Shown here one piece after another: positions 3,117 to 53,978 of a stretch of 64,000 nucleotides of DNA. The position numbers and the translations under genes are program-made. Position 1 is the stretch's first letter. Each line of letters starts with the position of its first letter. A model generated the notes under the pieces. It did no database searches and had not been told where the DNA came from. It saw only the letters and a list, made by a program, of their open reading frames with translations. Source of the DNA: Eledone cirrhosa (taxonomy: Eukaryota); NCBI GenBank assembly GCA_964016885.1, contig OZ024750.1, positions 32,922,001 to 32,986,000 of the forward strand, read 5' to 3'.

Positions 3117-3303
3117 TATTTAATTAGAAAGTAAACAACATAATATAACTAATCCATTACCAAAGGTTTCAGGACCCTAGACAGTATTAACATATGTCTA
3201 GTTCATCTGCTGAACGATCTAGACATATGTTAATATTGTCTAGAGTCCTGAAACCTTTGGTAATGGATTAGTTATATTATGTTGTTTACTTTCTAATTAA
3301 ATA
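3117..3303. mobile_element. Fold-back insert between (TA)n tracts: arms 3117-3201/3219-3303
   Basis: 85-bp inverted arms. Each arm carries a hammerhead-like 3' half (GAAAC-CTTTG-GTA) but there is no CTGANGA. Confidence 0.75.
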
Positions 3304-3980
3304 TATATATGATATATAAATATATATAAATATATGATATATAAATATATATATATATGCTATATAAATATATATATATGATATATAAATATATATATAT
3401 ATATATATGATATATAAATATATATATACATATATATATATATATGATATATAAATATATATATATATATATGATATATAAATATATATATATACATATA
3501 TATATATATATGATATATAAATATATATATATATATATATATATATGATATATAAATATATATATATTTATATATATATATGATATAATAAATATATATA
3601 TACGATATATAAATATATATATATATATATATATATATATGATATATAAATATATATATATATGATATATAAATATATATATATATGATATATAAATATA
3701 TATATATATGATATATAAATATATATATATATATATATATATGATATATAAATATATATATATGATATATATATATGATATATATATTTATATATGACAT
3801 ATAAATACATATATATATATATATATATATATATATATATATGATATATAAATATATATATATATATATATATATATATATATATATATAATAAAAAATT
3901 GAACAGGGACAGAACAGAGAGGCAGTACGACAAATGTTTATTAGATTCACGCTCAGGAGAATGGGGGGTAGGTGGAGGAC

Positions 3981-4008
3981 GACGTTTCGGGCATAAGCCC
4001 TTCTTCAG
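3981..4008 (-). ncRNA. Hammerhead-like core in the PLE 3' region
   Basis: CTGAAGA-A-GGGC(TTAT)GCCC-GAAACGTC; stem I pairing is weak. Confidence 0.6.
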
Positions 4009-5319
4009 GGAAGAGTTCAAAAGGTGTGTAGGGGAGTGGTGGAGAGACATATAGCGAAAGGAAACGGTGCGAATGAAAAAGTAACAAATAAAGACAAAAA
4101 TATAATAAATAATAAATAAAAATAAAGCATGATCAAAATACAAGGAATGAGAACATTTAAAAATAATTAAAAGGGGGGTAAACAGGTGGTGGAAGGGTGT
4201 GGGGTGAGTAGAGGTGGAGGCGGGTGGAGTGGGGAGAGGGAGACGGGGTGTCCGAGCGGGGAGGGCTGAAGGTGGTGTGTGTGGTTAGGTGTGCGTGTGT
4301 GTGTGTGTGTGTGTATGTGAAAGTGAGGGTTGGGGGAAGAACGGGGTTGCATGTTCAGGAAGGTGTGTGTGGGGGTGTTTTTGTGTGTTGGAGGGTCTGT
4401 GCGTGTGTGGATAGGGGGTGGGGGGGAGAGGAATCAGGGGGCTGAGGGTGTAAATATGTGGTGGGAAGCACGTGTGTGTGGTTTAAGCGTGTTGTGGGTG
4501 TGGGTGGCGTGTGGATAAAAAAAAATTTGTTTTGGGATGTGTGTGTGGGTGAGTTATATAGGTGATGGTGTTAGAGGATGGTTGAAAGTGGTAAGTTACA
4601 CGGATGTATGGAGATTTTGGTTGGAAGTCAAAACGCGTGTGGGTAATCCAAGAAGCGGTGGTCGGAAGAGGAGAGATGTGGGGTGCGCGCGCAACAGGAA
4701 GTGGTCAGCAGTGGAAGTGCTGTGGTCAGTTGGTGCTGAGACAGTGGTCGGAAGGGCATAGCAGCAGTCAGCGGAATGGTAGGGAGGCGAGGATGGGTAG
4801 GTGTGAGAGTTGGAGTGAGGAGGGTGTGTGTGTGTGTGTGTGTGTGTGTGTGTGTGTATTAGTAGGGGTGTTAGTGGGATGAGTGAGTGTGGAGTGGGGA
4901 GAGAAGGGTGTGTGTGGTTCTGTGGAGGGAGTGTGGTGTACTGGTGTGTGTGTAGTTTGGTGAGGAGGTGTTAGTGGGTGTTAGTAGACGGGAGGTGGGG
5001 AGGGGTGGAATGCAGGTGTGAGTGGGGGTTAGTGGGGGTAGGGTGTGTAGAGTTGGTGGTGTACGAGGGTGTGTGGGTACGTGTGCGTGGGGTTGGAGGG
5101 TGTTAGTGATGTTAGTTGCGTGTGGGGTGGGTGGTGTAAGTGTGTGCATGTGATAAGGAGGGGGGAGGAGGAGACGAGGGGAGGGAAGGGATGTTAGTAT
5201 GTTAGTTGGGGAAGGGTGGTTAGATGAGGGGTGGAGTGGAGGTGTTAGTATTGTTAGTGTGGGGTGGGCGGTAAAAAGGAGGGGTGTGTTAGTGGTGTTA
5301 GTGGGGGATAAGTGGGGGA

Positions 5320-5968
5320 GGGGGGCGGTCGAACGCTAAAGGAATAAGGGTGGGGAGTGTGGGTCTGTAAGATGAAGATAGTACGTTGTTCGACCGTGAG
5401 GCGATGGGCGGGTGTTCCGTGGCACTGGAGTAGGCCACAGACTGTGAGATGGTGTGCGGAGTGTCCAGGGCCACCAAAGTGGCGGGCGATGGGGGAACTG
5501 CCCCCGAGACGAATGTCCCGGAGGTGCTCCGTGACTCGGTCCGCCAGGCGGCGTCCCGTCTGTCCGACATAAGTCGCGCTGCACCTCGTGCAACGAAGTC
5601 CGTAGACTAGGTTGGAGGAGGTGCAGCGGAAGGCATGCCGGACCGAGAGAGGGTGGCCGTTGGGACCCTGGAAGGTGGTGGTGTTGGTGATGTGGGGACA
5701 GGTGTTGCAGCGGGGCCTAGAACAGGGGAAGGAACCGGGAGGGGGAAACGGAGCGTGGGTTGGGGGGTAGGGAGCTGTGGACGAGGAGGGTGCGGAGATT
5801 GCGTGCGCGTTTGAAGGAGGGGAGTGGTGGGGTTGGGAAGATGTGGGAGGTGGAGGGGTCGGACTGGAGGTGTCGGAAGAGGCGGCGGATGGTGCGGTGG
5901 AGGGGTACAGTGGAGGGGTGGTAGGTGATGGGGAAGGGGAGACGGTGGGTGTGCGGTGGCGTGGGGTA
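5320..5968 (-). pseudogene. PLE RT thumb, Cys-rich linker and GIY-YIG endonuclease (one frameshift near 5740)
   Basis: RLPFPITYHP...LQSDPSTSHIFPTPPLPSFKRARNLRTLLVHS, then in another frame GSFPCSRPRCNTCPHI...CTSSNLVYGLRCTRCSATYVGQTGRRLADRVTEHLRDI...IARHF (manual translation). Confidence 0.92.
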
Positions 5969-6484
5969 TATATAAATATATATATATATATATATATATA
6001 TATACATATATGCAGAAATATGAGAACAACTGCGAAAACTACTCACTGCAGCAGCAGTAGCACCAACTGCAGCAACACTTACTATGCTGCAGCAAAGTCA
6101 CACATTAGAAGTGCAAAACTGTTGCAAAAGCTTTGCAATTCTAGTTCGTTTTTTTCCTCCTTTTCATCTAGCATATATATATGTTTATATATATGGTTAT
6201 ATATATAAATATATATATAAATATATATATAATATATATAAATATATATATAATATATATAAATATATATATAAATGAAAACCCAGAGTTAAAAGCTCGC
6301 ATTAATACCTCCTAATTGGTCAGCTCAAAGTATATATGTGTATATATATATATACGTGTATATATATGTGTATATATATATATGTGTGTGTATATATATA
6401 TGTTTATATATATATACCTATACATATATATCATCATCATCATCATATATATATATGTATATATATATATATATGTATATATGT

Positions 6485-51830: not shown

Positions 51831-52027
51831 TAACGAAGGAGTTGTGGTAAGGAGCCAGGTGGACCATAACGCACCAGAGTACTCAATACTTAGGGTAGTA
51901 GAGTGGGTAATAGGAAAATGTATGACCCCGACGGCAGAGCTCAAGCCGTTTCGACGGCTATTTCTAGTCCAGAAATAGCCCTTCGAAAGGGCTTGAGCTC
52001 TGCCGTTGGGGTCATAGATTTTCCTAT
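51831..52027 (-). mobile_element. Fold-back family of 36613, copy 2
   Basis: Arms 51910-51965/51971-52027; tail hairpin 51881-51904 (minus). Confidence 0.88.
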
Positions 52028-52949
52028 ATATATATATGTATACCGTATGTGTATATGTAGAAATATAAGTAAGCTCTTTTACGTACATATTTGAAGGTAT
52101 TGACCTAGTTTGTCAATTGTATTGTTAGTCATCACATGTTTACATACTACAGTGTGTTATAGATTTTCTGTAAGGTTTCACGCAATATCAGCTCTACTAT
52201 TCTACTGGCAGACGAAGAAAGCTAGCTACAATTAAAGTCTGAACAGACTTCCTGGAAGCAATTCTTCCACATTTATCAAAGTTGATTAAAAACAGGGATT
52301 TTTGTTATTTACTGTTAGTTAAATTTTCTGTGAAACGTTTCTTCCATTTTAGTTAGCACAGATGCAATAGACATACATACACACATACATACACACATAC
52401 ACATACACACATACACACATACATTCGAACATTTCCACTCCCACACAAACTCTCACACGTATGCCCATATGATATATATGTTACCACATATGGTGAAAAC
52501 AGCTTGTATAATAACTTCACTCACAACCCCCCCCCCTACACACACACACACATGTGGTGGATGAAAGTTCATCACTGAATTAAAGTGTTCATCTGTTTCT
52601 TAAAGATCTTACTGTGAAGTCGTATGGCTTACGGGTTAGTGTTTCCAGCTGATGATCGTAAGATGGGAAGTTCAATTGCCGGCCGTGGGTTGCTTCGTAA
52701 ATGTGAGCGAAAGAGAGATTTGAAGGGCTTGGTCTGGAGAGTGATTAGTTATGGGGCACTCTGTGTATTCTACTTTTTTTCTTGTGTATGAGGTGGGCCC
52801 CAAACCAGATGTGTATCGGACCCCTAAGATCTAAATCCAACCGTGGATACGAGAGCGAAACAACAAAATAAAACTAGCAGATATTTTGGTGGATATATAT
52901 ACGAAACACGAAAGTAATGTTATAGCATACTGTAGCAGTAGCCTCCCTT

Positions 52950-53135
52950 GTTGTGACTCACAACCCCAATAGATTAACATCTAGACGGGAAGTAGAACCC
53001 TTTCTGTAACTTCCGGCAGAGCCCTATAAAACGAATAGCTTTCGGCTCTCTCCCTCTCACTGGCCCTTCCGGCGCCTGGCCTTCGCCAGGCGTCTTCTGC
53101 CAGCCGCTTTTGCCTGGCAATCAAAACGGTAACTA
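52950..53135 (+). promoter_or_regulatory. Candidate Pol II promoter and first non-coding exon
   Basis: TGACTCA, GGAAGT and CTTCCGG motifs, CTATAAAA at about 53024, a pyrimidine tract 25-30 nt downstream, a local CpG rise and a donor-like CG|GTAACT at about 53128. Confidence 0.4.
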
Positions 53136-53782
53136 CTAACTTTGCTTCATTCTTTCGTTTATTCATTGACATGTCAACTATACTGTTAAATTGTTGATTA
53201 AATATTATACACACAAACCATGTCTCCTTGTTACATTCATACACCGCTAGTTCTTCGCTATAATACATTACAGGAAATCCACCATAAACGAAAGCATAGA
53301 CATTTGGAGAAGACATCAAATTGGTTGTAAAATAAAATAACTTTCCTGATAACTGAAATGTTGAAGTGTATCAGAAAGAACAAACTTTTTCGGCTATTTC
53401 CGTAAAACATTAATAGTTTTACAATGACAATTCTACAATATGACTTTTATCTTAGATATTGTAACTTAATTAATATAATGTTTTATTTCCTGTCTAGATT
53501 TAAAAGCATATATACACATATACACACACACATATGCTTACATACACATGTACACACACAGGCTTACACACATACCCTCACGCACATGCTCGTTCTCTCT
53601 CTCCCCCACACACACAAGCAACCCTCCAATATCTATATCTATCTATCTATCTGTCTATCTGTCTATCTATCTGTCTATCTATCTGTCTATCTACCTGTCT
53701 ATCTATCTGTCTATCTATCTATCTATCTATCTATCTATCTATCTATCTATCTATCTATCTATCTATCTATATATATATATAT

Positions 53783-53978
53783 ATAACAAAGGAATTGAGG
53801 TAAGGAACCAGATGGACCATAACGCACCAGAATACTCAATACTTAGGGTAGTAGAGTGGGAAATAGGAAAAAGTATGACCCCGACGGCAGATCTCAAGCC
53901 GTTTCGACGGCTATTTCAGTCCAGAAATAGCCGTCGAAACGGTTTGAACTCTGCCGTCGGGGTCATACTTTTTCCTTT
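53783..53978 (-). mobile_element. Fold-back family of 36613, copy 3
   Basis: Same palindrome and tail; hairpin 53834-53857 (minus). Confidence 0.88.

What the first reader, a model, noticed from the sequence alone, without database searches (positions are those of the whole stretch)
3117..53978. Fold-back symmetry axes coincide with hammerhead stem II, suggesting snap-back at the ribozyme
Seen: in 3117-3303, 36613-36728 (and 51910, 53860), 41942-42100 and 48210-48330, each arm read outward from the centre gives a stem followed by GAAA-short loop-UH (GAAAC-CTTTG-GTA; GAAA-CGGC-TT; GAAA-TATA-TT; GAAA-CATA-TC). That is the 3' half of a hammerhead, while CTGANGA is absent and replaced by the mirror image. 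Inference: cDNA folded back on the stem II hairpin and primed its own second strand, so the ribozyme structure sets the inversion point and the product loses self-cleavage.
Basis: inference. Interest (0 to 1): 0.78.

Follow-up and report, generated by a model that had tools for sequence, protein, structure and literature searches.

The report
Penelope fold-backs turn at RNA start
These small mirror-image DNA pieces are cut-short ends of Penelope-like jumping genes, and their turning points pile up at one fixed spot per family that is likely the capped start of the element's RNA rather than the ribozyme's hairpin, which gives a testable clue to how these elements copy themselves.

Summary
All six fold-backs are real and all four families carry a hammerhead-type core, but 'axis = stem II, 5' half replaced by mirror' holds for only one family (36613, 51910, 53860). 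At 3117 and 48210 the axis sits on or just 5' of a point-mutated core; at 41942 one arm keeps the whole 5' half. They are head-to-head pseudo-LTR stubs with a one-sided tail in (TA)n, a known Penelope architecture; one family is tied to a Hydra-clade ORF. In samples chosen on the 3' end, arm ends peak at one base per family (89/105, 26/73, 49/93 truncated arms within -3..+10). That base has a TATA-like box about 30 nt upstream and an extra G before it in 25/46 arms against 30/182 at other ends, as expected for a capped transcription start. Junctions rarely use a stem (6/92), some have no room for a loop (12/92), and many are asymmetric, so two cDNAs joined 3'-to-3' fit better than snap-back. 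No RNA data were available; two further families did not show the same clear signature. The scan reached this reading before, in this genome and in others.

The parts
3096..3207 (-). F2 copy, tail-bearing arm (tail internally deleted); inner end inside the hammerhead core, stem II complete
3202..3303 (+). F2 copy, tail-less arm: core with one substitution 3207-3213, stem II 3214-3249, GAAA 3250-3253, predicted cleavage triplet 3260-3262; shares about 6 nt with the other arm
36613..36673 (-). F1 copy, tail-less arm; inner end exactly at family position +1 (36673)
36674..36800 (+). F1 copy, tail-bearing arm starting at +7; GAAA 36686-36689, predicted cleavage triplet 36706-36708, tail to 36800
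41916..42040 (-). F3 copy, arm that keeps stem I 5' strand (42022-42030), decayed core (42015-42021) and stem II; outer part joined to the family's far end by a deletion
42041..42228 (+). F3 copy, arm starting inside stem II; GAAA 42065-42068, long stem III, stem I 3' strand 42097-42105; junction lies in an alternative natural hairpin
48204..48276 (-). F4 copy, tail-less arm reaching +1 (48274) with one or two extra G; core with two substitutions 48260-48266; GAAA 48243-48246
48277..48405 (+). F4 copy, tail-bearing arm starting inside the core
51832..51965 (-). F1 copy, tail-bearing arm ending at +6/+7
51966..52027 (+). F1 copy, tail-less arm starting at +1 (51966)
53785..53917 (-). F1 copy, tail-bearing arm ending at +7
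53918..53975 (+). F1 copy, tail-less arm starting at +1 (53918)

Best explanation
These are head-to-head, one-tailed stubs of Penelope-like elements in (TA)n whose inner ends cluster at one fixed base per family, likely the capped transcription start, where two separately primed cDNAs likely ran off the RNA and were joined end to end. Shown: the architecture, the fixed outer ends (with and without tail), the inner-end peaks, the excess G, the upstream TATA-like box, the junction types. From the literature: a Penelope-type enzyme nicks both strands of AT-rich DNA and starts reverse transcription at two internal sites that bound the tail, on uncleaved RNA (PMC11167929); Penelope transcription starts inside the pLTR (PMC2377424, PMC8557442); an extra G marks copying of an mRNA cap in L1 insertions (PMC11702581). 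Inferred: each nicked strand primes one cDNA, each copies only the 60-150 nt between its start site and the cap, and the two 3' ends are joined blunt, by 1-2 nt of pairing or with short templated inserts. The axis falls in stem II in F1 only because the start site of that family lies inside stem II; loss of the ribozyme's 5' half is then a property of the transcript, not of a fold-back.
For: Inner ends peak at +1 in all three sampled families (24, 8 and 14 arms, the modal truncated end in each) with 89/105, 26/73 and 49/93 truncated arms in -3..+10 and only 3, 6 and 2 in -29..-4: a sharp upstream edge. The peak is inside stem II in F1 but 13 nt (F2) and 7 nt (F4) 5' of the core. Long copies show a canonical TATA box at -30 in F4 and TATA-like words at -31 (F1) and about -29 (F2). 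G precedes 25/46 ends at +1 against 30/182 other ends (Fisher p 5e-7; 27/41 against 43/191 with the looser penalty; each family p<0.007), while long copies never have G there (0 of 52). Two-cDNA signs: 12 of 92 two-arm junctions leave 2 nt or less unmirrored and only 6 of 92 share 3 nt or more (L072 dropped); in 13 of 70 F1 rows the partner arm stops far downstream while the selected arm starts in -3..+10, and in 53 of 70 the partner begins at the tail end (read); L062 has the extra G on both arms; L128, L286 and L110/L113 have arms with linked alleles of different subfamilies. In short-read contigs 12 of the 15 listed joints leave the 36613 copy at 36665-36673 and land at scattered points.
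Against: No transcript 5' end was seen; the start site is inferred from DNA alone. In F1 the commonest base before +1 is C (14 of 24), from a recurrent +1/+7 junction, not G (9 of 24); part of the G's could come from the partner arm (whose loose patterns also caught non-family rows: 31 of 79 unexplained ends were G). Arms of one insertion are much more alike than random pairs (F2 92/498 discordant diagnostic sites against 0.448; F4 15/109 against 0.417; background 0.08), which a one-molecule U-turn also predicts. In F2 36 to 41 of 73 truncated arms and in F4 32 to 42 of 93 end beyond +10. Out-of-sample families did not repeat the full signature: in F5 about 14 of 38 arms stop at a 6-bp palindrome about 70 nt 5' of the core with an extra G in about one, and in F6 21 of 29 arms run on with no peak (counted by eye). 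The 41942 copy switches inside a natural hairpin.
Confidence: 0.6

Rival explanations
1. Same capped start, but one cDNA: the enzyme runs off the cap, turns onto its own cDNA with little or no pairing, and copies it back to the first start site.
For: Arms mostly share subfamily alleles; short templated inserts at junctions such as L059, L071, L077, L100; the recurrent +1/+7 junction leaves a 6-nt loop (all three F1 window copies are +1 with +6/+7); self-priming was proposed for Penelope palindromes (PMC3846280, passages).
Against: 12 of 92 junctions leave no room for a loop; 13 of 70 F1 partners stop far short of the axis; extra G on both arms in L062; three events with arms from different subfamilies; the second arm ends at a fixed site that is an independent start site in vitro (PMC11167929).
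Confidence: 0.17
2. The enzyme stalls on folded RNA (the closing helix of the ribozyme or the inner helix of stem II) and the stop site is structural, not an RNA end; joining follows by either route.
For: In F2 and F4 the peak is the first base of stem I; in F1 it lies at the base of the inner stem II helix.
Against: Does not explain the extra G or the TATA-like box at about -30 in three families; the enzyme passes stronger helices (stem III, outer stem II) first; in F2 and F4 it stops after, not before, unwinding the structure.
Confidence: 0.1
3. One reading: cDNA folds back on the stem II hairpin and primes its own second strand, so the ribozyme sets the inversion point.
For: F1 ends lie within the stem II span (97 of 112 arms); the 41942 junction lies in a natural hairpin that includes part of stem II.
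Against: It predicts ends on the 5' strand of stem II with the natural loop kept in the centre; only 3 of 105 F1 arms end in -29..-4. F2 and F4 peaks are 5' of the core. F5, F6 and the 2567 fold-back keep the core. 19 arms from 18 other F3 loci run past the 41942 switch region with core and stem I intact.
Confidence: 0.06
4. Inner ends are made by RNA processing other than initiation: ribozyme cleavage or a 3' splice site.
For: Penelope has an intron ending at helix I (PMC4209133); L038's partner arm starts exactly after the predicted F1 cleavage site.
Against: F1 cleavage would give ends at +42: 1 of 53 tail-anchored partner arms. The F1 peak keeps the AG that a splice would remove; F2 has no AG there; neither process adds a G. 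Caveat: the search anchors span the cleavage site, so selected arms could not show cleaved ends.
Confidence: 0.05
5. Assembly artefact: fold-back chimeras of long reads.
For: No short-read contig spans a whole copy with 31 letters on both sides of the axis.
Against: Thousands of copies with fixed family-specific ends, 7-22% divergence between arms, and strand-switch or skip joints at the same positions in short-read contigs.
Confidence: 0.02

Closest known systems
Inverted 5'-truncated pLTR plus one-sided tail of endonuclease-bearing Penelope-like elements (Adineta Pen2a, Drosophila virilis Penelope; PMC3846280 passages, PMC8557442 passages, PMC2377424 passages)
   Same: Head-to-head arms, tail on one arm, palindromic junctions, 5' truncation.
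   Different: Here the whole insertion is 190-310 bp with no ORF, the tail is 70-90 nt rather than 30-40, and the inner ends peak at one base with an extra G; PMC3846280 explains the junction by self-priming on an antisense template.
Hydra clade of C-terminal-endonuclease Penelope-like elements (PMC8557442, section 11 read)
   Same: F1's parent has an RT-like frame followed by a CxCx5C linker and a GIY-YIG-like domain with CxxC and CxH motifs, a hammerhead and (TA)n targets.
   Different: F1's hammerhead has a U3-A8 core and a stem II of about 60 nt, and its inferred start site lies inside the ribozyme; F2-F4 were not tied to an ORF.
Poseidon element of Anolis (PAc) in vitro (PMC11167929, parts 1-2 of 4 read)
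   Same: Two internal reverse-transcription start sites bounding the tail, both target strands nicked and extended, AT-rich targets, uncleaved RNA as template.
   Different: That work does not map 5' junctions or explain inverted ends; different clade.
L1 twin priming and cap-derived extra G (PMC11702581, passages; twin priming itself recalled)
   Same: Two primed ends at one target; extra G where the enzyme reaches the cap.
   Different: In L1 the two cDNAs copy different parts of one RNA; here both copy the same 5' segment, giving a palindrome.

Membership tests
EN+ Penelope-like element, inverted-pLTR insertion | Head-to-head arms with a tail on one arm | tested here: met
   All six window copies; 53 of 70 F1 rows.
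EN+ Penelope-like element, inverted-pLTR insertion | pLTR lies 3' of an ORF with RT and GIY-YIG domains | tested here: met
   F1 only: L031 and L332. Pfam support is weak (GIY-YIG E 0.069, below cut-off; no RT family); the RT motif was recognised by eye from recall.
EN+ Penelope-like element, inverted-pLTR insertion | ORF link for F2, F3, F4 | tested here: inconclusive
   No Penelope-type frame within 1.5 kb upstream of 3 long F2 and 2 long F4 copies; F3 not searched. Assignment rests on architecture.
EN+ Penelope-like element, inverted-pLTR insertion | Target-site duplication | not tested
   Insertions lie in (TA)n, where duplications are hard to call.
Hydra clade | CxCx5C linker; CxxC and CxH around the conserved E and N; C-terminal endonuclease | tested here: met
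   Translations against the description.
Hydra clade | (TA)n targets and a hammerhead in the pLTR | tested here: met
   core is the U3-A8 variant.
Hydra clade | RWK and DKT motifs, absence of CCHH, placement in an RT tree | not tested
   The loci fetched do not reach the N-terminus; no tree was built.
Type I hammerhead ribozyme | Three-way junction with core, GAAA and UH triplet (F1, F3) | tested here: met
   F1 fold z -2.32, 3 of 200 shuffles as good; F3 z -4.72, 0 of 200. F3 positions 3 and 8 pair in 14 of 20 arms: C-G 9, G-C 4, U-A 1. U3-A8 is a described variant (PMC4209133). The base of F3 stem II is imperfect.
Type I hammerhead ribozyme | Three-way junction (F2, F4) | tested here: inconclusive
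   Core and GAAA conserved; 2 of 14 F2 folds and none of 9 F4 folds gave a clean three-way junction; stem II base (F2) and stems I/III (F4) are imperfect.
Type I hammerhead ribozyme | Self-cleavage | not testable with these tools
   Needs an in-vitro assay.
Capped Pol II transcription start | TATA-like box about -30 and extra G at run-off ends | tested here: met
   (three families; box canonical only in F4).
Capped Pol II transcription start | Capped RNA 5' ends at +1 | not testable with these tools
   No RNA run listed.
Stem II snap-back product | Natural stem II loop kept between mirrored arms; junction inside the helix | tested here: not met
   3 of 105 F1 arms end in -29..-4; 6 of 92 junctions share 3 nt or more.
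MITE / DNA transposon | Symmetric terminal inverted repeats with a fixed interior | tested here: not met
   Outer ends differ by the tail and the interior junction varies from copy to copy.

The most novel reading that the evidence does not exclude
The inverted pLTR of Penelope-like elements is the product of a dimeric enzyme copying the capped 5' end of its own mRNA twice, once from each tail boundary, so that fold-back axes read out each family's transcription start from genome sequence alone; and in F1 the promoter sits inside the ribozyme, so new transcripts start with half a hammerhead and only the downstream or read-through copy can cut, which would give the ribozyme a 3'-end or read-through-trimming role.
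Probability: 0.45. Interest if true: 0.62.

Novelty: new variant of a known kind. Interest (0 to 1): 0.42.

Why it matters
How Penelope-like elements build inverted ends, and what their hammerheads do, are stated open questions (PMC8557442 passages; PMC11167929). If the reading holds, thousands of genomic stubs per family map the transcription start to the base, replace antisense self-priming with two-ended priming on sense RNA, and show that uncleaved capped RNA is the template in vivo. Each point can be tested with CAGE and the existing in-vitro system. The architecture itself is known and the stubs are probably inert.

Tried and rejected
Rfam scan: no useful hammerhead hit for the four families. 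RNA support: no RNA holder listed; the four runs are contigs and cannot show RNA ends. Two apparent F2 tandems (L251, L252) were duplicated regions, not full-length elements. Pfam gave no RT hit. First junction parser cut alignments early at variant sites and was used only for partner-arm positions in F1; the pattern-based count caught non-family rows; both were replaced. With the looser penalty 11 F1 arms were misplaced at -7 by chance likeness of mirror and natural sequence; both settings are reported. F4 counts inside stem II (19 or 27) are inflated by a subfamily without a long reference. I first read F3 as having no hammerhead and then with the wrong GAAA; one search corrected both. A planned scripted tally for F3 and F5 was not run, so those counts are by eye. 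Rejected: MITE, artefact, splice site, cleavage site. Literature searches for a published start-site or cap-G account of Penelope inverted junctions found none; the library lacks most subscription papers, and supplements were not read.
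Full report
Setting. The window lies on contig C10 of a 3.0-Gb genome; earlier scan notes call it an octopus (not tested here). It is rich in (TA)n. I call the families F1 (36613, 51910, 53860), F2 (3117), F3 (41942) and F4 (48210).

Ribozymes. Non-inverted relatives of each family carry the 5' half of a hammerhead. F1 long copies fold as a three-way junction with a U3-A8 core, a stem II of about 60 nt, a 5-bp stem III and a GUC triplet (z -2.32); the U3-A8 core is described for Penelope-like elements (PMC4209133, parts 1-2 of 4 read). 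F3 folds as a three-way junction with 9-bp stems I and III (z -4.72), and core positions 3 and 8 covary: C-G 9, G-C 4, U-A 1, unpaired 6 of 20 arms. F2 and F4 have a conserved core and GAAA but imperfect helices.

The six copies. In all three F1 copies one arm ends exactly at family position +1 and the other at +6 or +7, inside the 3' half of stem II, and the 5' half is gone. At 3117 the axis is on the core, one arm keeps the core with one substitution, and both keep stem II. At 48210 one arm reaches 7 nt 5' of a twice-mutated core and ends with extra G. At 41942 one arm keeps stem I, core and stem II; the switch lies in an alternative natural helix, and 19 arms from 18 other loci keep core and stem I (the sample was the 30 best BLAST hits).

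Breakpoints. I took the first matches on contig C1 of exact 3'-side patterns (3,494 F1, 1,705 F2, 5,467 F4 matches) and fetched 70 loci per family, about 2-5% of the matches. After dropping 4 F1 and 3 F4 duplicate loci, 112, 93 and 98 arms were aligned to long natural copies. Truncated arms ending in -3..+10: 89/105, 26/73, 49/93; ending in -29..-4: 3, 6, 2; +1 is the modal truncated end in each. Position +1 is inside stem II in F1, but is the first base of stem I in F2 and F4, 13 and 7 nt 5' of the core. Many F2 and F4 arms end further downstream without a peak (F2 stem II: 26-30 arms over 35 nt). About 30 nt upstream of +1 lies a canonical TATA box in F4 and TATA-like words in F1 and F2. The base before +1 ends is G in 25 of 46 against 30 of 182 at other ends (p 5e-7); by family 9/24, 6/8, 10/14. 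In F1, C is commoner (14/24) because of a recurrent +1/+7 junction, and some G's may belong to the partner arm. An extra G at full-length L1 junctions is attributed to the mRNA cap (PMC11702581, passages), and Penelope transcription starts inside the pLTR (PMC2377424 and PMC8557442, passages; Drosophila Penelope is TATA-less, a difference). I infer that +1 is the capped start.

One cDNA or two. Outer ends are fixed: the F1 selected arms end without the tail, and 53 of 70 partners begin at the tail end, as expected from the two reverse-transcription start sites shown in vitro, where both strands are nicked and extended and ribozyme cleavage is not needed (PMC11167929). Of 92 two-arm junctions (L072 dropped as a reference-length artefact), 12 leave 2 nt or less unmirrored, too little for a priming loop unless a spacer was lost later, and only 6 share 3 nt or more. 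In 13 of 70 F1 rows the partner stops far downstream. L062 has G on both arms. L128, L286 and the duplicated L110/L113 have arms with linked alleles of different subfamilies, but most pairs are far more alike than random pairs (F2 0.185 against 0.448, 44 pairs; F4 0.138 against 0.417, 45 pairs; background 0.08), so this test does not exclude a one-molecule U-turn for most copies. Short-read contigs show joints leaving the 36613 copy at 36665-36673 in 12 of 15 listed rows; they may come from the same individual.

Controls. The window's fold-backs at centres 563, 2567 and 34989 keep a canonical core. For the 563 family about 34 of 38 arms reach the core and about 14 stop at a 6-bp palindrome some 70 nt upstream, with little sign of extra G; for the 34989 family 21 of 29 arms run on and 8 stop at scattered places (by eye; best-hit samples). 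Both contradict a stem II rule; neither confirms the cap signature, so the start-site rule is shown for three families only.

Identity. F1's pLTR lies about 740 nt downstream of a frame with a CxCx5C linker, a GIY-YIG-like domain and CxxC/CxH motifs, preceded by an RT-like frame, matching the Hydra clade (PMC8557442 section 11). Pfam support is weak. F2-F4 were not tied to an ORF.

Prior knowledge. Inverted pLTRs with a one-sided tail and palindromic junctions are described, and were explained by self-priming on antisense RNA (PMC3846280, passages). Six searches found no paper tying the junction to the start site or a cap G; the 2026 retrozyme preprint had no relevant passage (term search only). 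My reading was recorded before the look-up; the scan's earlier notes hold the same reading in this genome and in others, which is not independent evidence.

Verdict. Observation partly confirmed; stem II snap-back not supported as a rule; run-off at a capped start with two joined cDNAs is the best account (0.6). Known architecture with a testable mechanistic reading: interest 0.42.

Noticed in passing
window 400-726: Fold-back of a fifth family with canonical core in both arms; relatives often turn at a 6-bp palindrome about 70 nt 5' of the core, a zero-loop junction that suits pairing of two cDNA ends.
   Followed up: partly
window 2363-2747: Fold-back with an intact minimal hammerhead (core at 2588; weak Rfam HH9 hit) in the unmirrored centre; the partner arm holds only the outer part.
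   Followed up: no
window 34750-35230: Very young family (many 100% matches), both arms with canonical core; no breakpoint peak near the ribozyme in 29 arms.
   Followed up: partly
window 17197-17423, 50892-51383, 58014-58318: Further short inverted-end elements in (TA)n with long unmirrored centres; 51103 holds a hammerhead-type core.
   Followed up: no
window 3970-4020 (-), 38288 (+), 40286 (-), 50756 (+): More hammerhead-type cores followed by a stem and GAAA.
   Followed up: no
window 39748-39793 and 50653-50689: A perfect 46-nt palindrome and a near-perfect 37-nt one, origin unknown.
   Followed up: no
L141, L158 (F3 relatives): F3 occurs as tandem units of about 600 bp with an internal (TA)n tract, like a non-autonomous element or retrozyme; an upstream segment can pair with stem II and block the hammerhead fold.
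   Followed up: partly
L174, near 1500: Telomere-type hexamer repeats directly abut the +1 end of an F4 arm.
   Followed up: no
L286: Arms share a rare variant near the axis but belong to different subfamilies further out, as if one cDNA was completed on the other.
   Followed up: partly
window 18205-19402 and 62602-63742: Inverted pairs of a common 150-190-bp interspersed repeat, probably a SINE.
   Followed up: no
window 24000-29000: Long purine-skewed tandem repeats giving open frames on both strands.
   Followed up: no
L250 1-900; L251 3810-5788: Broken LINE-type reverse-transcriptase frames beside F2 copies, unrelated to Penelope.
   Followed up: no
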